Shown here in pieces: positions 1,605 through 6,858 of a DNA stretch of 15,799 nt (position 1 is its first letter; each line of letters begins with the position of its first letter). Source of the stretch: a virus (taxonomy: Duplodnaviria > Heunggongvirae > Uroviricota > Caudoviricetes); the IMG/VR virus record IMGVR_UViG_2681813154_000010. One strand, 5' to 3'. A model generated the notes under the pieces. The model ran no database searches and was not told the origin of the DNA. It saw only the letters and a program-made list of their open reading frames with translations. Both the position numbers and the translations under genes were made by a program.

Positions 1605-1793
1605 GTGTTAAGCACTGATCGGTTTATACGTGAAAAAGAATGCGAAAAGCTAACAGGCCTTAGCCGCTCATGCCGCTACCGCCTGGAAAAGGCCGGACAA
1701 TTCCCATCACGTCGTAAACTTGGCGGTCGTTCCGTTGGCTGGTCTTTATCCGAGGTTCTGGCCTGGAAGGATAGCTGCAAGGCAGTTCATTAA
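1605..1793 (+). CDS. alpA: AlpA-family (prophage CP4-57 regulator-like) DNA-binding transcriptional regulator / putative excision activator, 62 aa
   Basis: GTG start preceded by AAGGGGG; translation contains the AlpA-family core LTGLSRS..YRL...G.FP....LGGRSVGW...EV..W; followed by GC hairpin 1801..1817 without a U-run. Confidence 0.85.
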   Translation: MLSTDRFIREKECEKLTGLSRSCRYRLEKAGQFPSRRKLGGRSVGWSLSEVLAWKDSCKAVH

Positions 1794-1939
1794 TCACGCT
1801 GGCGGCACGCAGCCGCCACACATCAATCATCTGAACACAGAGCTATAACCATGAAGATTGAATATACGCCAGAACGTGGGCGGGGATTCGTTCGCCCTGG
1901 TGAAACTGGAAAACCACAAAATTGGGGTTTTTCAGGCAT

Positions 1940-1968
1940 AAAAAAAGCGGCCCCGAAATGGAGCCGCC
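1940..1968 (-). terminator. Rho-independent terminator for a leftward transcript
   Basis: On the minus strand: stem GCGGCUCC / GGGGCCGC (8 bp, one G-U wobble), 5-nt loop, then seven U (plus-strand A-run 1940..1946). The same hairpin is poorer on the plus strand (C-A mismatch) and has no U-run there. Confidence 0.6.
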
Positions 1969-2062
1969 TTTCTGAACAGATAACCCGCTGCGCCGTTTGT
2001 GTGTGTGATCCCAAACATAAGCACGGGGATGATAGCCGCTATCAGGCTGGTGGGCAATGCAA

Positions 2063-2239
2063 TCAGTCTGGTTCAGTGCGTTGCCATAACTGCGAAGTTC
2101 TCTCCTTTGATGAGTATTCTTTAAGGTACTTCTCAAGGGCAAAAGAACACGGCGCGAATCGTTCTGATTCATGCTCTTTCTTTCTGCGTCGTCTTTTTCG
2201 TGCAGGTGATGTTTTTTCGGTTGATTCTTCGTTGGTCAT
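2063..2239 (-). CDS. Hypothetical small basic protein (58 aa, MTNEESTEKTSPARKRRRRKKEHE...) in the leftward unit; may instead be part of a non-coding RNA
   Basis: ORF translated by hand from the reverse complement; lies upstream of the minus-strand terminator; weak RBS; below the ORF-track length cutoff. Confidence 0.25.
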   Translation of the reverse strand: MTNEESTEKTSPARKRRRRKKEHESERFAPCSFALEKYLKEYSSKERTSQLWQRTEPD

Positions 2240-2299
2240 TGTGTGCGCCTGTAAAGCAATGCGCCGTAGTACCTCACACCACGGCGCTGATAGTTTTTA

Positions 2300-2401
2300 T
2301 CCTTTGGGTTCTATGCCGCGTTGCTGTAATTCTTTGCGGATTATTCGCTTTATCCAGGCAGCAAGAGAATCATCGCCGTCCTGTTGTTGTGCCTTTTCCA
2401 T
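2300..2401 (-). CDS. Hypothetical small protein (33 aa, MEKAQQQDGDDSLAAWIKRIIRKELQQRGIEPKG)
   Basis: Hand-translated minus-strand ORF with GGGAAAAG upstream of the ATG; sits next to the divergent promoter region at about 2400..2500. Confidence 0.25.
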
Positions 2402-2469
2402 CTTTTCCCGTAAGTCAGGATCTAAACGGAACTGGAACGGAGGATTACCACGCCTTTCGTTTTTGTGTG

Positions 2470-2499
2470 TTGACACGTTAATTACACCTCAGGTAATGT
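2470..2499 (+). promoter_or_regulatory. Putative sigma70 promoter (TTGACA-N18-TAATGT) for the rightward small-gene/primase operon, flanked by direct TGACAC repeats
   Basis: TTGACA at 2470..2475, TAATGT at 2494..2499; TGACAC at 2471..2476 and 2512..2517 are possible operator half-sites; a GC hairpin (GCCCCG ... CGGGGC) at about 2544..2574 lies in the leader. Confidence 0.35.
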
Positions 2500-2605
2500 A
2501 TTTATGTGTAGTGACACATTACACACAATCAACACAAAAAGCAAAGCCCCGCACTGTAGGAGCAGTAACGGGGCTTCTAACCAACAACGTAAACTAGGAG
2601 CCGTT

Positions 2606-2806
2606 ATGGTTGCCGTAAATCATATACCACACCTTGTACACACACAAACGGCCTTTGTGTGGCGTTTTCTGGCACTGAGTGCCGGAGAATCCCAAATCAT
2701 CCACGTAACCGCTTGGACGGAACGCGAAGCGCGTAGCCGTTGCCCGTCCGGTTGTGTTGCTGTATTCGCCGCCCGTATTCGTCAGGGGGAAACCTATGCA
2801 CAATAA
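2606..2806 (+). CDS. Hypothetical protein, 66 aa
   Basis: ATG at 2606 preceded by AGGAG (2596..2600); internal start within ORF-track entry 2504..2806; first gene of a run of overlapping, same-strand small genes. Confidence 0.55.
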   Translation: MVAVNHIPHLVHTQTAFVWRFLALSAGESQIIHVTAWTEREARSRCPSGCVAVFAARIRQGETYAQ

Positions 2807-3017
2807 AACCACACCGAACGCAGCAGCCGCCGCACTCACTACGCTGATGCACGCGCTTATTGATATTGAATGCACGGCAGAGCTTGCGCAGGGAGAAGAA
2901 CAGAAAGACCGGACACAGTTCGCCCTGGAATGTATCCGATACATCGCAACGCGGTCACTGAATGACGCTAAAAATATTCTTGTTGCCGATTGTGAAAATG
3001 GGGGGGGTTATGCGTGA
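2796..3017 (+). CDS. Hypothetical protein, 73 aa (MHNKTTPNAAAAALTTLMHALIDIECTAELAQ...)
   Basis: ATG at 2796 preceded by GGGGGA; overlaps the upstream gene by 11 nt, consistent with translational coupling; in frame with ORF-track entry 2754..3017. Confidence 0.5.
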   Translation: MHNKTTPNAAAAALTTLMHALIDIECTAELAQGEEQKDRTQFALECIRYIATRSLNDAKNILVADCENGGGYA

Positions 3018-3162
3018 TGATCGTTTTAATTCCCTGAAACAGGAATTTTCCGGCGTTCCTGATGATGCGGCTGATGCGCTTTCGTCAATGCCAGAACTTA
3101 TTAGAGCGGCTTTTTTCTTACTTTCCACGAGAGAATATAAATCAACGGGCTTGATGTACTGA
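3010..3162 (+). CDS. Hypothetical protein, 50 aa (MRDDRFNSLKQEFSGVPDDAADALSSMPELIRAAFF...)
   Basis: ATG at 3010 overlaps the upstream stop (ATGCGTGATGA), after a G7 run acting as RBS; in frame with ORF-track entry 2962..3162. Confidence 0.45.
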   Translation: MRDDRFNSLKQEFSGVPDDAADALSSMPELIRAAFFLLSTREYKSTGLMY

Positions 3163-3231
3163 ATATCGCCGCCGATTATGCTGATTTCGTGACAGAGGTT
3201 ATTTTAAGAAAAACGACGGACGGGGATTAAT

Positions 3232-3465
3232 ATGCGTGATATTTACCACGAAACAATAGACCGCGCATTTCTTGCACTTTCTCACAGTGAAAACATGCTG
3301 GAAATATTGCGCATATGGCTTGAAACACTTGGCGACAATGAACGCGACAAACAAAAATCAAGAATTGCCACGGCATTAATAACGCTTCTTGAGCCTGTAA
3401 TAATGGAACTGCAAGAAATAGATCTATTGCACGACAGATATAAAGAACAACACACCGGAGAATAA
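3232..3465 (+). CDS. Hypothetical protein, 77 aa
   Basis: ATG at 3232 preceded by GGGGA 6 nt upstream; same strand as the operon. Confidence 0.6.
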   Translation: MRDIYHETIDRAFLALSHSENMLEILRIWLETLGDNERDKQKSRIATALITLLEPVIMELQEIDLLHDRYKEQHTGE

Positions 3466-3470
3466 AAATA

Positions 3471-3770
3471 ATGAAACTTAAATATTCTGGCTTAACTGCC
3501 AGTGGCAACACTCACCCTAAATTTACGCGCGGTGATATTTACCGCGACCAGTACGGCGGCATGGTAACGATTAAAGGCGTGGCAGAACGGCGCATCACCT
3601 ACCGCCGTGAAGGTTACGAATATGATTGCGTGATGCCTGTTTATCAATTCCGGCGTGATTTCACGCTGGTACAGGCAGCGCCCCGCAGTAAACCAACCAG
3701 CAGGGAGAAAGCACGCGCCAATATTCAGGAAATAAAAAAGATGCTTAACGTATTCAGGGGTAAAAAATGA
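3471..3770 (+). CDS. Hypothetical protein, 99 aa
   Basis: ATG at 3471 preceded by GGAGA; stop overlaps the primase start (ATGA at 3767..3770). Confidence 0.6.
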   Translation: MKLKYSGLTASGNTHPKFTRGDIYRDQYGGMVTIKGVAERRITYRREGYEYDCVMPVYQFRRDFTLVQAAPRSKPTSREKARANIQEIKKMLNVFRGKK

Positions 3771-5515
3771 AACTGGCACCGAACGTAAAAAAACAGCCAC
3801 GCGGAATAAAACACAAAGACACAGAGGTAATTATCTTTGCGGGTAGTGATGCCTGGTCGCACGCGAAACAATGGCAGGAGCAGGATGGCCCCGCATCCGG
3901 CGATAATGTGCCGCCTGTGTGGCTTGGGCCAAATCAGCTTGCCGAACTTGATGCACTGAAAATTGTTCCGGATGGAAAAAAACGCGTAAGGCTGTACCAG
4001 GCCGGAGAACTGGATTTGGTGGAGACCAAAAAGATTGGTCAGAAGCTGGCGGCGGCAGATATTCAGGACGCAAATTTTTACCCCGAAGGAATGCACGTCC
4101 AGAAGTGTGAAAACTGGCGGCGCTATCTGAATGCTGAGCGTGAAAATATTGCCGCAGGGCTTACCATGCCGGAGCAGAAAAATACGCAACTGGCACAAAT
4201 GGCAGACAGTGAGCGCGCGCAGCTGCTTGCCGAGCGCTTTGATGGCGTTTGTGTGCATCAGGAAAGTGAAATCGTTCACGTATGGCGCGGCGGGGTATGG
4301 TGTCCGGTCAGCACAATGGAACTTAGCCGCGAAATGGTGGTGATCTATTCAGAGCACAGGGCCACTTTCAGCAAGCGCGTAATCAATAACGCCGTGGAAG
4401 CGTTAAAAGTTATTGCCGAACCAATGGGCGAGCCGTCCGGCGATTTGCTGCCGTTCGCCAATGGTGCGCTTGACCTGAAAACGGGGGAATTTTCCCCGCA
4501 CACGCCGGAGAACTGGATCACCACGCACAACGGCATTGAGTACACGCCACCAGCACCAGGGGAGAACATCCGCGATAACGCGCTAAACTTTCATAAATGG
4601 CTTGAGCACGCAGCCGGAAAAGACCAGCGCAAGATGATGCGTATATGTGCCGCGCTGTACATGATTATGGCGAACCGGTACGACTGGCAGATGTTTATTG
4701 AGGCCACCGGAGACGGCGGGAGCGGTAAAAGTACATTCACACACATAGCCAGCCTTCTGGCAGGGAAACAGAACACGGTAAGCGCTGAAATGACATCGCT
4801 TGATGATGCTGGTGGACGTGCGCAGGTTGTCGGGAGTCGTCTTATCGTCCTGGCTGACCAGCCGAAATATACAGGCGAAGGAACGGGCATCAAGAAAATC
4901 ACGGGCGGTGACCCCGTGGAAATTAACCCGAAATACGAAAAGCGTTTCACGGCTGTAATCAGGGCGGTGGTGCTGGCGACCAACAATAACCCGATGATAT
5001 TCACCGAACGGGCCGGAGGTGTGGCACGTCGTCGCGTGATTTTCCGTTTCGACAATATCGTTAGTGAGGCCGAAAAAGACAGGGAGCTACCGGAAAAGAT
5101 TGCGGCTGAAATCCCTGTCATTATCCGCCGATTGCTGGCGAACTTTACCGACTCTGAGAAAGCACGGGCTTTACTACTGGAACAGCGTGACGGTGATGAA
5201 GCTCTGGCAATAAAGCAACAGACGGATCCGGTTATTGAGTTTTGCCAGTTCCTGAATTTTCTGGAGGAAGCACGCGGCCTGATGATGGGCGGCGGTGGCG
5301 ATTCAGTGAAGTACACGACCAGAAACAGCCTTTACCGCGTCTATCTGGCGTTTATGGCGTACGCAGGCAGGAGCAAACCGCTAAACGTAAATGACTTTGG
5401 CAAGGCTATGAAGCCAGCCGCGAAAGTTTACGGACATGAATATATTACGCGGAAAGTTAAGGGAGTAACGCAGACTAACGCAATAACAACAGACGAGTGC
5501 GACGCGTTTTTATAA
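3767..5515 (+). CDS. P4-family phage/plasmid primase with C-terminal SF3-type helicase/NTPase domain (Pri-Rep-like replication initiator), 582 aa
   Basis: Walker A motif GDGGSGKST in the C-terminal half; size and position (after alpA, before an iteron array) match satellite primase-replicase genes. Confidence 0.85.
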   Translation: MKLAPNVKKQPRGIKHKDTEVIIFAGSDAWSHAKQWQEQDGPASGDNVPPVWLGPNQLAELDALKIVPDGKKRVRLYQAGELDLVETKKIGQKLAAADIQDANFYPEGMHVQKCENWRRYLNAERENIAAGLTMPEQKNTQLAQMADSERAQLLAERFDGVCVHQESEIVHVWRGGVWCPVSTMELSREMVVIYSEHRATFSKRVINNAVEALKVIAEPMGEPSGDLLPFANGALDLKTGEFSPHTPENWITTHNGIEYTPPAPGENIRDNALNFHKWLEHAAGKDQRKMMRICAALYMIMANRYDWQMFIEATGDGGSGKSTFTHIASLLAGKQNTVSAEMTSLDDAGGRAQVVGSRLIVLADQPKYTGEGTGIKKITGGDPVEINPKYEKRFTAVIRAVVLATNNNPMIFTERAGGVARRRVIFRFDNIVSEAEKDRELPEKIAAEIPVIIRRLLANFTDSEKARALLLEQRDGDEALAIKQQTDPVIEFCQFLNFLEEARGLMMGGGGDSVKYTTRNSLYRVYLAFMAYAGRSKPLNVNDFGKAMKPAAKVYGHEYITRKVKGVTQTNAITTDECDAFL

Positions 5516-6768: not shown

Positions 6769-6858
6769 ACGATCGGTGCGATTACTGATTTCCTTATGAA
6801 AAACGGTTGAGTGTTTGCCGCGTCCTGGAGTTCCTTACTTAACCCCAGGACTTTTTTT

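What the first reader, a model, noticed from the sequence alone, without database searches (positions are those of the whole stretch)
1795..2500. Leftward transcription unit with a strong terminator between alpA and the rightward operon; small proteins or a regulatory RNA
A textbook intrinsic terminator lies on the minus strand at 1940..1968, convergent with alpA. The only long annotated ORFs here (plus 1851..2597, minus 1843..2172) run through that terminator and look non-protein-like. Upstream of the terminator the minus strand encodes only short ORFs (33 aa at 2300..2401, 58 aa basic at 2063..2239). The unit diverges from the putative rightward promoter at about 2470. Its position (divergent from the replication/packaging operon, next to alpA) is where a master repressor or antisense regulator would be expected, and no CI/Stl-like repressor gene exists elsewhere in the element. 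It may be a small-protein or RNA-based immunity or regulatory function.
Basis: partly seen in the sequence, partly recalled or inferred. Interest (0 to 1): 0.55.

Follow-up and report, generated by a model that had tools for sequence, protein, structure and literature searches.

The report
Missed repressor gene and antisense RNA
The "empty" stretch between alpA and the replication genes of this phage satellite encodes a conserved 59-residue DNA-binding protein that starts at GTG, next to a conserved antisense RNA; together they look like the off-switch that Gram-negative satellites of this kind were thought to lack.

Summary
A strong intrinsic terminator lies on the minus strand at 1940-1972. 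The two long ORFs that cross it are not genes. A leftward unit ends at the terminator.

The "33-aa ORF" is the tail of a 59-aa GTG-initiated ORF (2476..2297, minus). It is an Arc/CopG-type ribbon-helix-helix (RHH) protein, conserved at full length across Enterobacterales, Orbales, Pasteurellales and Aeromonadales. It always sits between alpA and the oppositely oriented primase operon.

Its start codon overlaps a near-invariant TTGACA, the -35 of the rightward promoter. Each RHH subtype comes with its own palindromes laid over that promoter. Near-identical E. coli islands swap this regulator-plus-operator cassette.

Just outside the given coordinates (about 2611..2537, minus) lies a roughly 75-nt candidate cis-antisense RNA. 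It covers the ribosome-binding site and start codon of the first rightward gene. It has strong covariation, a clear strand bias, and no Rfam match.

The 58-aa basic ORF is a real but E. coli/Shigella-restricted accessory gene.

Best reading: a two-layer repression module (RHH plus antisense RNA) for the satellite's replication and packaging operon, similar in layout to P22 immI or pMV158 CopG/RNAII. Function is inferred, not shown.

The parts
1940..1972 (-). Intrinsic terminator T2 of the leftward rhh-p58 unit. The core stem is GGCGGCUCC/GGGGCCGC, followed by a U7 tail. It is convergent with alpA.
   Evidence: -22.4 kcal/mol, z = -3.18, and 0 of 200 shuffles fold as well. It is invariant in five E. 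coli island variants. Similar GGCGGCC..GGCCGC plus T-run terminators lie downstream of rhh in other genera.
2063..2239 (-). p58, a small basic protein of 58 aa with unknown function. It is the second gene of the leftward unit.
   Evidence: It matches phrog_21027 at 2.9e-12. There are 24 homologue clusters, all E. coli or Shigella. The core SPARKRRRRKI-EHESERFAPCAFALEKFLKEY is conserved, with frameshifted C-terminal tails. It is retained at 49% identity in L003, where the overlapping 109-aa frame is broken.
2261..2287 (-). Hairpin between rhh and p58. It could be a partial terminator or an RNA stability element. It marks the left edge of the swapped regulator cassette.
   Evidence: It was listed by the scan with 12 pairs. 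Its energy is -21.1 kcal/mol, z = -3.1. The sequence is retained across cassette variants, as seen in the plus-frame translations AMRRSTSHHGA.
2297..2476 (-). rhh, a 59-aa ribbon-helix-helix protein with a GTG start. It is the candidate repressor of the rightward operon.
   Evidence: It matches PHROG 228 'Arc-like repressor' at 2.1e-6. There are 117 homologue clusters with conserved length. The AlphaFold model has pLDDT 79 with helices at 20-33 and 38-52. Most of the listed Foldseek hits are RHH proteins (NikR, Arc, CopG, ParG, antitoxins), but all have E > 1. hhalign against Arc aligns the beta-strand with E = 0.003.
2465..2525 (.). Operator-like palindromes of the type A cassette. O3 is GTGTcaacACAC at 2465-2476. 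O2 is ATTACCtgaggTGTAAT at 2481-2497. O1 is TGTGTAATGtgtCACTACACA at 2505-2525.
   Evidence: One search finds the same three elements at fixed positions in most type A loci. Types B, C and D and the YlcI cassettes carry different palindromes. This interval has the highest density of TGTGT/ACACA in the whole window.
2470..2499 (+). Rightward promoter PR. The -35 is TTGACA at 2470-2475 and the -10 is TAATGT at 2494-2499. The predicted start is near 2506. The -35 overlaps the rhh start codon.
   Evidence: TGTCAA is present in 59 of 62 distinct loci. The Ser2 codon is TCA in 60 of 62. A TAnnnT hexamer lies 16-18 bp away in 58 of 62.
2516..2544 (-). Predicted rhh promoter. The -35 is TTGCTT at 2544-2539 and overlaps the U-run of the upstream terminator. 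The -10 is TAATGT at 2521-2516, inside O1. The predicted start is near 2509.
   Evidence: a TTGnnn, 17/18-nt spacer, TAnnnT combination recurs 41-47 nt before the start codon in types A, B and C. This is a prediction only.
2537..2611 (-). Candidate cis-antisense RNA of about 75 nt. Stem-loop P1 shows the anti-Shine-Dalgarno CUCCU in its loop. The terminator hairpin is at 2577-2543, followed by a U-run. The RNA is complementary to the Shine-Dalgarno (2596-2600) and ATG (2606-2608) of the first rightward gene.
   Evidence: The alignment has 53 sequences. Of the cells, 95.6% are paired, 16 of 23 pairs show compensatory change, and 0 of 500 shuffles reach this; slid controls give about 40%. There are 175 G.U cells on this strand against 7 on the other. 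The covariance model finds one hit in the window (68 bits) and hits in loci not used to build it, including EcCICFT073. There is no Rfam match.
2619..2647 (-). Predicted promoter of the antisense RNA. The -35 is TTGTGT at 2647-2642 and the -10 is TATGAT at 2624-2619. The start is near A2611. It lies inside the icd-like coding sequence.
   Evidence: In alignment A2 the T, A and T of the TAnnnT hexamer and the A at the predicted start are invariant in 53 sequences. The encoded N-terminal residues of the rightward gene vary. Pasteurellaceae loci carry TGTATAAT.
2606..2806 (+). Icd-like gene, the first gene of the rightward operon and the target of the antisense RNA.
   Evidence: It matches NCBIfam phage_ICD_like at 1.6e-17. 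It is annotated at this start in RefSeq relatives.
1605..1793 (+). alpA, convergent with the leftward unit.
   Evidence: It matches Pfam Phage_AlpA at 5e-18.
1851..2597 (+). Shadow ORF of 248 aa. It is not a gene.
   Evidence: It lies antisense to rhh and p58 in the frame whose third codon positions coincide with theirs. It has no family hit. It is 6.5% Cys. This frame carries stops in 12 of 62 loci. It is broken in L001 and L002 and absent in EcCICFT073.

Best explanation
The interval holds the repression module of a capsid-forming, phage-inducible chromosomal island. The description below gives the proposed mechanism first, then separates what is shown from what is inferred.

Layout:
- A leftward operon runs from a promoter near 2516-2544 to the terminator at 1940-1972.
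- It encodes a 59-aa ribbon-helix-helix (RHH) protein, followed by an accessory 58-aa basic protein.

Proposed action of the protein:
- The RHH protein, as a dimer or higher oligomer, binds the palindromes O1-O3 (2465-2525).
- These palindromes cover the -35, the -10 and the start site of the rightward promoter PR. They also cover the -10 of the RHH gene's own promoter.
- Binding would keep the icd-like/primase/packaging operon off in the quiescent island and would autoregulate the RHH gene.

Proposed second layer:
- A roughly 75-nt antisense RNA is made from a promoter inside the first rightward gene. It ends at a terminator just upstream of the RHH promoter.
- It pairs with the ribosome-binding site and start codon of that gene. 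This would block translation of leaky transcripts.

Proposed induction:
- Helper-induced AlpA would override the module, most simply by driving rightward transcription from alpA.
- That transcription would pass the weak plus-strand side of the 1940 terminator and run antisense through p58 and rhh into the replication operon.

Shown here: the genes, the predicted fold, the promoter and palindrome conservation, the pairing of cassette type with operator type, and the RNA structure and its strand.

Inferred: DNA binding, repression, RNA expression and action, and the AlpA step.
For: The gene is real and places consistently:
- It matches an Arc-like profile.
- 117 homologue clusters were found, mostly of 59 aa.
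- 73 loci were found in four orders. Wherever these neighbouring genes were detected, the order primase/icd | rhh | alpA/int is the same.
- The start codon is GTG in 37 loci and ATG in 25.

The fold fits:
- The AlphaFold model has two confident helices.
- Most of the listed Foldseek matches are RHH proteins.
- The beta-strand aligns with that of Arc.

The rightward promoter is conserved under the gene's start:
- TGTCAA occurs in 59 of 62 loci.
- The Ser2 codon is TCA in 60 of 62.
- A TAnnnT hexamer lies 16-18 bp away in 58 of 62.

Palindromes track the RHH subtype:
- The A, B, C and D subtypes each have their own palindromes at the same positions.
- Type C has ATGGTAATTACCAT twice, both in E. 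coli and in Oceanisphaera.
- Otherwise closely similar E. coli islands swap only this cassette (flanks compared).

The antisense RNA is supported by covariation and strand bias, an invariant -10, and covariance-model hits in unseen loci.

The terminator is confirmed.

Literature context:
- The zone after alpA has been proposed to carry immunity functions (PMC10111431).
Against: - There is no transcript, binding or genetic evidence.
- No curated Pfam or NCBIfam model reaches its threshold. Every Foldseek E-value is above 1. The PDB sequence search found nothing significant.
- The operator assignment is correlative. The centres of the palindromes are 26 and 18.5 bp apart, which is not a simple helical repeat.
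- None of the three promoters passes the simple consensus scan.
- Overexpressed AlpA alone induces EcCICFT073. Any repression is therefore easily overridden, or acts on a different step.
- The same module heads a BREX operon on plasmids. It is therefore a portable control cassette, not a satellite-specific immunity system.
- The test for exclusion of same-type cassettes within one genome was inconclusive.
Confidence: 0.6

Rival explanations
1. The module is a replication or copy-number control unit of the CopG/RNAII type, not an immunity or quiescence switch. The RHH protein and the antisense RNA would tune expression of the primase operon once the island replicates, instead of keeping it silent.
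For: The targets are the leader and first gene of the operon that carries the D5-type primase. An RHH protein combined with an antisense RNA is the pMV158 design (abstract of PMC4485353, listed).
Against: The island is integrated and quiescent most of the time. Cassette swapping between otherwise near-identical islands resembles the immunity regions of phages. The module also heads a BREX operon that has no replication gene directly after it.
Confidence: 0.15
2. rhh and p58 form a toxin-antitoxin or addiction pair. The RHH protein would be the antitoxin and autorepressor, and p58 the toxin.
For: RHH antitoxins (VapB, ParD, HicB-type) appear among the weak profile and fold matches. One source names homologues 'HicB family'.
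Against: p58 is confined to E. coli and Shigella. rhh stands alone about 100 nt from alpA in Xenorhabdus, with a terminator 38 nt after its stop codon. p58 stays with the backbone when the regulator type changes. There is no toxin or defence family hit. A 57-nt gap with a hairpin separates the two genes.
Confidence: 0.05
3. The conserved hairpin and U-run at 2577-2536 is not a free-standing small RNA. It would be a leader or attenuator of the rhh transcript, or an insulating terminator that shields the rhh promoter from leftward read-through.
For: Its U-run overlaps the predicted -35 of the rhh promoter. Expression of a separate RNA has not been shown. The -35 of the proposed antisense promoter is weak in the window (TTGTGT).
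Against: The TAnnnT hexamer and the purine at the predicted start are invariant in 53 sequences, even though they lie inside a variable coding sequence. Stem P1 covaries and presents the anti-Shine-Dalgarno in its loop. Pasteurellaceae loci carry a consensus extended -10, TGTATAAT.
Confidence: 0.25
4. The plus-strand 248-aa ORF (1851..2597) is the real gene, as annotated in some O157:H7 genomes. The minus-strand ORFs would then be artefacts.
For: RefSeq annotates the equivalent 247-aa ORF as a hypothetical protein in an O157:H7 genome. The frame is open in 50 of 62 loci over the rhh segment.
Against: It has no family hit. It is 6.5% Cys. It has no Shine-Dalgarno and contains a terminator hairpin. 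It is broken in L001 and L002 and absent in EcCICFT073. It is not conserved outside E. coli, whereas rhh is conserved across four orders. Its frame is the antisense frame whose third positions coincide with those of rhh and p58, and that frame stays open by chance when the sense genes have few Tyr, His or Gln codons.
Confidence: 0.03

Closest known systems
Phage P22 immI region (Mnt and Arc RHH repressors plus the sar antisense RNA). The comparison of layout rests on my own knowledge of the P22 literature.
   Same: A small RHH repressor gene is transcribed opposite to the operon it controls, from overlapping promoters. A small antisense RNA of about 70 nt, made from a promoter inside the controlled gene, covers that gene's ribosome-binding site. 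The beta-strand PPFQFRL aligns with PQFNLRW of Arc. Arc (1b28) is among the fold matches.
   Different: No significant sequence homology was found: hhalign gives probability 10%, and no Pfam Arc model hits the window protein. Rfam gave no hit to any family, so none to sar if that family is in the library. The controlled operon is a satellite's replication and packaging operon, not an antirepressor gene. There is one RHH gene, not two.
Plasmid pMV158 CopG (RHH) plus antisense RNAII, which control repB
   Same: Control has two layers. An RHH transcriptional repressor is combined with a small antisense RNA that blocks translation of the first replication-operon gene (abstract of PMC4485353). CopG (2cpg) is among the fold matches, with rmsd 0.8 A.
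   Different: CopG is the first gene of the operon it represses. Here the RHH gene is on the opposite strand. The replicon here is a D5-primase type, not a rolling-circle type. There is no sequence similarity.
Immunity RNAs of P1 (C4, controlling icd-ant) and P4 (CI), Rfam families C4 and isrK. These have been reported in the variable zone of some Gram-negative PICIs (PMC10111431).
   Same: An RNA controls expression of an Icd-like first gene or early operon, in the same zone of the element.
   Different: C4 and CI are cut from the sense transcript. Here the structure is selected on the opposite strand, with 175 G.U cells against 7. Rfam gives no C4 or isrK hit even at E up to 10.
Stl/Rpr master repressors of Gram-positive PICIs and SaPIs
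   Same: The position and presumed role match: a regulator gene sits between int and the oppositely transcribed replication operon and keeps the island quiescent (PMC6092414).
   Different: To my knowledge Stl/Rpr are larger helix-turn-helix proteins; PMC6092414 states only that they are lifted by binding a helper-phage protein. This is a 59-aa RHH protein. Induction of Gram-negative islands runs through AlpA. Nothing is known about derepression here.
YlcI/YnfO family (NCBIfam NF041551, Pfam DUF3950), small prophage proteins of unknown function
   Same: Members of this family occupy the same slot in sister islands, including the 59-aa protein of EcCICFT073. Weak reciprocal profile similarity exists: 20 bits to NF041551, and E of 0.012-0.019 to phrog_949.
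   Different: The window protein scores below the family cut-off, at 20 against 30 bits. Its best match is the Arc-like PHROG, not this family.

Membership tests
Ribbon-helix-helix (Arc/MetJ/CopG) DNA-binding superfamily | A core of about 45 residues: an N-terminal beta-strand followed by two helices | tested here: met
   The AlphaFold model has helices at 20-33 and 38-52 with pLDDT above 90, preceded by an extended segment at 11-19. The strand pairs only in a dimer, so it is not seen in a monomer model. Most of the 32 Foldseek matches are RHH proteins: NikR at rmsd 0.7 A, CopG at 0.8 A, plus Arc, ParG and antitoxins.
Ribbon-helix-helix (Arc/MetJ/CopG) DNA-binding superfamily | A significant match to a curated sequence model of an RHH family | tested here: inconclusive
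   PHROG 228 'Arc-like repressor' matches at 2.1e-6, and at 5e-7 to 6e-4 for subtypes B-D. No Pfam or NCBIfam RHH model reaches its threshold. hhalign against Arc gives E = 0.003 and probability 10%. The PDB sequence search gave nothing below E = 0.3.
Ribbon-helix-helix (Arc/MetJ/CopG) DNA-binding superfamily | Binds inverted or tandem repeats, usually at its own or a neighbouring promoter | not testable with these tools
   Candidate sites exist. Subtype-specific palindromes overlap PR and the rhh promoter. Binding itself was not tested.
YlcI/YnfO family (NF041551) | A score at or above the curated cut-off of 30 bits | tested here: not met
   The window protein scores 20 bits, E = 5.1e-4. The neighbouring-island protein L003 3934-4239 scores 60.8 bits and is a member.
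P22 immI-type switch | An RHH repressor gene opposed to the controlled operon with overlapping promoters, plus a small antisense RNA over the ribosome-binding site of the controlled gene | tested here: inconclusive
   The layout is met by prediction and conservation. Transcription and repression were not tested. No homology to Arc, Mnt or sar was found.
Type II toxin-antitoxin module with an RHH antitoxin | A conserved adjacent toxin gene co-inherited with the antitoxin | tested here: not met
   p58 is found only in E. coli and Shigella. rhh is solitary in several genera. No toxin or defence family matches.
C4 / P4 CI / isrK immunity RNAs (Rfam) | A match to the covariance model, with the RNA on the sense strand of the controlled transcript | tested here: not met
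   There is no hit at the gathering score or at E up to 10. The structure is selected on the antisense strand.
Stl/Rpr PICI master repressor | A helix-turn-helix repressor that is lifted by binding a helper-phage protein | tested here: not met
   The fold is RHH, not helix-turn-helix. Derepression cannot be tested here.
Rho-independent terminator | A G+C-rich hairpin directly followed by a U-run on the transcribed strand | tested here: met
   For 1972-1940 on the minus strand: -22.4 kcal/mol with a U7 tail. For 2577-2536 on the minus strand: a hairpin followed by GCUUUUU, with compensatory changes.
Capsid-forming PICI (cf-PICI) | int, alpA and a primase, plus its own capsid, protease, portal, connector and terminase genes, in about 15 kb | tested here: met
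   The island is inserted next to phoQ, as is EcCICFT073. The capsid gene carries an in-frame TGA.

The most novel reading that the evidence does not exclude
Gram-negative phage-inducible islands, including the models EcCICFT073 and EcCIEDL933-like elements, are not repressor-less and are not transcribed in one direction only. They would carry a leftward, exchangeable RHH-type repressor-plus-operator cassette, backed by a previously undescribed family of cis-antisense RNAs. This two-layer switch would set which islands can coexist and how AlpA induction works. The same portable switch would also gate defence operons such as BREX on plasmids.
Probability: 0.45. Interest if true: 0.75.

Novelty: new variant of a known kind. 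Interest (0 to 1): 0.62.

Why it matters
The founding description of Gram-negative PICIs says that they are transcribed in one direction, rightward. [quoted passage not shown]

A conserved leftward RHH gene lies over the main rightward promoter. It comes in exchangeable specificity types and has an antisense RNA beside it. This gives a concrete and easily testable candidate for the missing off-switch.

It also explains why this interval is annotated in four incompatible ways in RefSeq.

It adds an RNA family absent from Rfam, supported by 53 sequences with covariation.

It would also matter for engineering PICIs as delivery vehicles, and for understanding how defence cargo such as BREX on pEFER-like plasmids is regulated.

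Tried and rejected
- **Rfam.** Scans at gathering score and at E up to 10 gave only weak, terminator-like chance matches.
- **Pfam, NCBIfam and PADLOC.** On the small ORFs, nothing reached threshold except alpA and the icd-like gene.
- **PDB sequence search.** A search with the RHH profile found nothing significant.
- **The 33-aa ORF as a peptide gene.** Rejected. It is the tail of the 59-aa ORF.
- **The 109-aa minus ORF.** Rejected. It has no hits, runs through the terminator, and is broken in L003, although one RefSeq genome annotates it.
- **Third-codon-position analysis to decide the coding strand.** Not usable. The third positions of the plus ORF and of rhh/p58 coincide. Stops in relatives were used instead.
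- **The flanking 15-nt inverted repeat (1992-2006 / 2638-2652) as a general feature.** It is specific to the E. coli/Shigella lineage.
- **Exclusion of same-type cassettes in one genome.** Copies per genome are 1.00-1.03 for a cassette type, against 1.35 for the backbone. Partial matches blur the counts, so the result is inconclusive.
- **Literature.** Searches for an RHH repressor or antisense RNA in these islands found none. The library holds open-access papers only.
- **A wrong guess.** The first guess at the CFT073 coordinates hit a lambdoid prophage.
Full report
**Context**

The window is a capsid-forming phage-inducible chromosomal island.
- It carries an integrase (1-1230), alpA (1605-1793, Pfam Phage_AlpA 5e-18) and an icd-like gene (2606-2806).
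- It also carries DUF4222, a D5-type primase, and capsid, protease, portal, connector, HNH and terminase genes.
- It abuts phoQ.
- Every island protein compared is 100% identical to one encoded in Shigella flexneri CP182556.1 (locus L004).

**Checking the observation**

The minus-strand terminator is real. The hairpin at 1972-1942 plus a U7 run has an energy of -22.4 kcal/mol, z = -3.2, and none of 200 shuffles folds as well. The plus-strand version is much weaker, at -14.6 kcal/mol with tail CUUUCUG.

The two long ORFs that cross it exist (plus 1851..2597 and minus 1843..2172). Neither behaves like a gene.
- Neither has a family hit.
- The plus ORF is 6.5% Cys.
- The plus ORF lies in the antisense frame whose third codon positions coincide with those of both minus-strand genes. 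That frame tends to stay open by chance.
- The frame carries stops in 12 of 62 related loci.
- It is broken in L001 and L002 and absent in EcCICFT073.
- The 109-aa minus ORF is broken in L003.

RefSeq annotates this interval in four incompatible ways in different genomes: a plus-strand 247-aa hypothetical protein, an 'Icd-like pseudogene', the 109-aa minus ORF, or two small minus-strand genes.

The "33-aa ORF" is the C-terminal half of a 59-aa ORF, 2476..2297 on the minus strand. It starts at GTG and has GAGGTG 8-9 nt upstream.

This protein has 117 homologue clusters. Most are 59 aa long, and they are named "hypothetical", "phage protein" or "HicB-like".

A scan of one genome per species found 73 loci in Enterobacterales, Orbales (Gilliamella, Frischella), Pasteurellales and Aeromonadales.
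- Wherever these neighbours were detected, the gene has primase, DUF4222 or icd-like genes on one side on the opposite strand, and alpA and int on the other.
- The start V/M-S-T is conserved. It is GTG in 37 distinct loci and ATG in 25.

**What the protein is**

The evidence points to a ribbon-helix-helix (RHH) fold.
- It matches PHROG 228, 'Arc-like repressor', at 2e-6. Subtypes B-D match at 5e-7 to 6e-4.
- The AlphaFold model (pLDDT 79) has two confident helices, 20-33 and 38-52, after an extended N-terminal segment.
- Most of the 32 Foldseek matches are RHH proteins: NikR, CopA-SO, ParG, Arc, CopG and several RHH antitoxins. Every E-value is above 1, as is usual for so small a domain.
- hhalign places PPFQFRLDP on the DNA-reading strand PQFNLRWP of Arc, with E = 0.003 and probability 10%.

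No curated Pfam or NCBIfam model reaches its threshold.
- The nearest is YlcI/YnfO (DUF3950), at 20 bits against a cut-off of 30.
- I therefore file the protein as an RHH protein by fold and by profile lead. I do not file it as a member of any named family.

**The control region**

The interval between the RHH start and the first rightward gene (2477-2625) is conserved at the DNA level from Escherichia to Gilliamella. Three features stand out.

*1. The rightward promoter.*
- The hexamer after the first base of the start codon is TGTCAA in 59 of 62 distinct loci. This is the reverse complement of TTGACA.
- The Ser2 codon is TCA in 60 of 62, out of six synonymous choices.
- A TAnnnT hexamer lies 16-18 bp away in 58 of 62 loci. 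Three more have CATAAT.
- This is therefore a promoter constraint laid over the first codons of the gene.
- In the window, PR is TTGACA at 2470-2475, an 18-nt spacer, then TAATGT at 2494-2499.

*2. Subtype-specific palindromes.* The RHH proteins fall into subtypes that differ in the N-terminal arm and beta-strand but share almost identical helices.
- The subtypes are A (RRGNPPFQFRL), B (KGNKQIALRV), C (KRSPP(F/Y)QMRL) and D (in O157:H7).
- Each has its own palindromes at the same two or three positions.
  - Type A: AATGTGT-N4-ACACAT, ATTACA-N5-TGTAAT and GTGT-caac-ACAC.
  - Type B: CAAGTGTcatACACTTG.
  - Type C: ATGGTAATTACCAT twice, 31 bp apart. This is the same in E. coli L001 and in Oceanisphaera.
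  - Type D: AGGTGACCAC twice.
- In the window these are O1 (2505-2525), O2 (2481-2497) and O3 (2465-2476). They cover the start site, the -10 and the -35 of PR.
- This interval has the highest TGTGT/ACACA density in the 15.8-kb window.
- E. coli islands that are otherwise closely similar here exchange exactly this regulator-plus-operator cassette. The 286 nt between the alpA and p58 stop codons are 96% identical.
- In some islands the replacement is a YlcI/YnfO-type regulator with its own repeats.
- The experimentally studied EcCICFT073 is one of these. It has a 59-aa YlcI/YnfO protein, a p58 homologue and the same flanks.
- This is the behaviour of an immunity region.

*3. A recurrent rhh promoter.* A promoter-like pair (TTGnnn, a 17/18-nt spacer, TAnnnT) recurs 41-47 nt before the RHH start in types A, B and C.
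- In the window it is TTGCTT at 2544-2539 and TAATGT at 2521-2516.
- If this pair and PR are both real, the two start sites lie about 3 bp apart and each transcript runs through the other's promoter. This geometry is predicted, not shown.
- The simple consensus scan flagged none of these promoters.

**A second element, outside the given coordinates**

Upstream of the RHH promoter lies a hairpin plus U-run on the minus strand (2577-2536). It is preceded by a small stem-loop, and before that by a TAnnnT hexamer.

The promoter signal is strong.
- In an alignment of 53 loci, the T, A and T of that hexamer are invariant. So is an A lying 8 nt beyond the hexamer's last base (7 bases between).
- These positions lie inside the coding sequence of a first gene whose N-terminal residues vary.
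- Pasteurellaceae loci carry TGTATAAT.

The structure is well supported.
- 95.6% of cells are paired.
- 16 of 23 pairs show changes on both sides, in 125 cells.
- None of 500 shuffles reaches any of these measures. Slid controls give about 40% pairing.
- The structure belongs to the minus strand. There are 175 G.U cells there, against 7 positions that would be G.U on the plus strand. Pairing is 95.6% on the minus strand and 81.7% on the plus strand.

The predicted RNA runs from about A2611 to about 2537 and is 75 nt long.
- Its first stem-loop shows CUCCU, the complement of the AGGAG Shine-Dalgarno at 2596-2600.
- Its 5' end covers the ATG at 2606-2608.

A covariance model finds exactly one copy in the window (68 bits).
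- It finds copies in loci not used to build it: L001-L003, L077, L078 and EcCICFT073 at 66.8 bits.
- It finds none in a 45-kb lambdoid prophage region.

Rfam has no match. This includes C4 and isrK, which were reported for some islands of this kind (PMC10111431).

**The rest of the leftward unit**

The 58-aa ORF (2239..2063) is a real gene but not a core one.
- It matches phrog_21027 at 3e-12.
- Its 24 homologue clusters are all E. coli or Shigella.
- It has a conserved core and frameshifted C-terminal tails.
- It stays with the backbone whichever regulator type is present.

In other genera, rhh is followed by zero to several unrelated small ORFs. A terminator on the rhh strand was found downstream of these in most loci.
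- In Xenorhabdus the terminator lies 38 nt after the stop codon and alpA about 100 nt away.
- This argues against a toxin-antitoxin pair. So does the lack of any toxin or defence family hit.

A conserved hairpin (2287-2261, -21 kcal/mol) separates rhh from p58 and marks the left edge of the cassette.

**Mechanism proposed**

Confidence in this mechanism is about 0.6.
- The RHH protein binds O1-O3. This represses PR and regulates its own promoter.
- The antisense RNA blocks translation of leaky icd-like transcripts.
- Helper-induced AlpA overrides both layers.

The published data are compatible with this mechanism.
- AlpA activates expression downstream of alpA, and its overexpression alone induces EcCICFT073 (PMC6092414).
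- The plus-strand side of the 1940 terminator is weak.
- AlpA-driven transcription could therefore run antisense through p58 and rhh into the replication operon. That step is my inference.

What is shown: the genes, the predicted fold, the conservation, the pairing of cassette type with operator type, and the RNA structure and its strand.

What is inferred: binding, repression, and RNA expression and action.

**Comparison with what is known**

The layout works like P22 immI, which has an opposed RHH repressor, overlapping promoters and the sar antisense RNA over a ribosome-binding site. That comparison rests on my own knowledge.

It also works like pMV158 CopG plus RNAII (PMC4485353). No homology to either was detected, so this is resemblance and not membership.

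It differs from P1 C4 and P4 CI, which are sense-strand RNAs. It also differs from Stl/Rpr, which to my knowledge are helix-turn-helix proteins.

The literature held here gives this picture of Gram-negative PICIs:
- they are transcribed unidirectionally and rightward;
- most genes are unidirectional, and a dynamic zone after alpA may provide immunity through CI-like RNAs (PMC10111431).

No paper found describes this RHH gene or this RNA. Only open-access papers were searched.

**Caveats**

- The same module is also found on IncR and other plasmids, with the RHH protein 91.5% identical, type A operators, and the RNA at 93 bits. It was read in full on pEFER, and RHH homologues at 90-95% identity occur on 97 plasmid records. 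On pEFER it heads an operon that runs into WYL/BrxR and BREX genes. It is therefore a portable switch, not something unique to satellites.
- The test for exclusion of same-type cassettes in one genome was inconclusive.

**Verdict**

The interpretation needs correcting in two ways.
- The regulator is a GTG-start RHH protein, not a peptide.
- The RNA lies upstream of the interval, not within it.

The function still needs experiments.

Noticed in passing
window 7684-7686 (ORFs 6811-7686 and 7687-8016): The major capsid gene is interrupted by a single in-frame TGA. Both halves hit Pfam Phage_capsid. E. coli relatives that are 99.6% identical over this stretch are annotated as intact capsid genes. 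This copy is therefore probably a nonsense mutant and the island may be unable to form capsids.
   Followed up: partly
window 2754-3162: One PHROG family (phrog_2512, 154 positions) is split over two overlapping ORFs, 2754-3017 and 2962-3162. The sister island L001 has a single 154-aa gene here. This is a likely frameshift.
   Followed up: no
window 1992-2006 and 2638-2652: A perfect 15-nt inverted repeat (GCCGTTTGTGTGTGT / ACACACACAAACGGC) brackets p58, rhh, the control region and the antisense RNA. No comparable repeat turned up at the equivalent positions in the other loci scanned, nearly all from other genera. Its role is unknown.
   Followed up: partly
window 2057-2029 (minus strand): A promoter-like site, TTGCCC, 17 nt, TATCAT, lies just after the p58 stop codon and about 60 nt upstream of the 1940 terminator. 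It lies in a stretch that is 96% conserved among five E. coli islands. It could give an RNA of about 80 nt at the 3' end of the unit.
   Followed up: no
window 2641-2661 (plus strand): A terminator-like hairpin, CACACAAACGGCCTTTGTGTG followed by GCGTTTTCTG, lies 35 nt into the icd-like coding sequence. It overlaps the -35 region of the antisense promoter. It is a possible attenuation point for rightward transcription.
   Followed up: no
L080 (E. coli CFT073, NC_004431.1 1377930-1388654), locus coordinates 29526-31053: The model island EcCICFT073 has the same hidden layout. From left to right: alpA; then, leftward, a p58 homologue and a 59-aa YlcI/YnfO-type regulator with its own direct repeats (AGGTGTGGCCCAC twice); then the antisense RNA (66.8 bits); then the icd-like gene.
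   Followed up: yes
L081 (plasmid pEFER, NC_011743.1), locus coordinates 2960-3680: The whole module sits on an IncR plasmid: the RNA at 93 bits, type A operators, and the RHH protein at 91.5% identity. It heads an operon of a 105-aa hypothetical protein, a WYL-domain protein and BREX genes. In all, 97 plasmid records carry the RHH protein at 90-95% identity.
   Followed up: partly
L003 (NZ_CP027579.1), locus coordinates 3249-4458: Two regulator modules stand in tandem: YlcI/YnfO plus a 75-aa ORF, then type A rhh plus a p58-like gene. Each has its own copy of the antisense RNA element.
   Followed up: partly
window 1801-1817: A G+C-rich hairpin, GGCGGC-acgca-GCCGCC, lies directly after the alpA stop codon. 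It has no T-run on either strand. It is conserved in the E. coli variants.
   Followed up: no
window 2606-2806: The icd-like protein matches PHROG families labelled 'transcriptional repressor' (phrog_1743 at 2e-22, phrog_6196 at 1e-16). It also matches the NCBIfam cell-division-inhibitor model. The two labels disagree and neither was examined.
   Followed up: no
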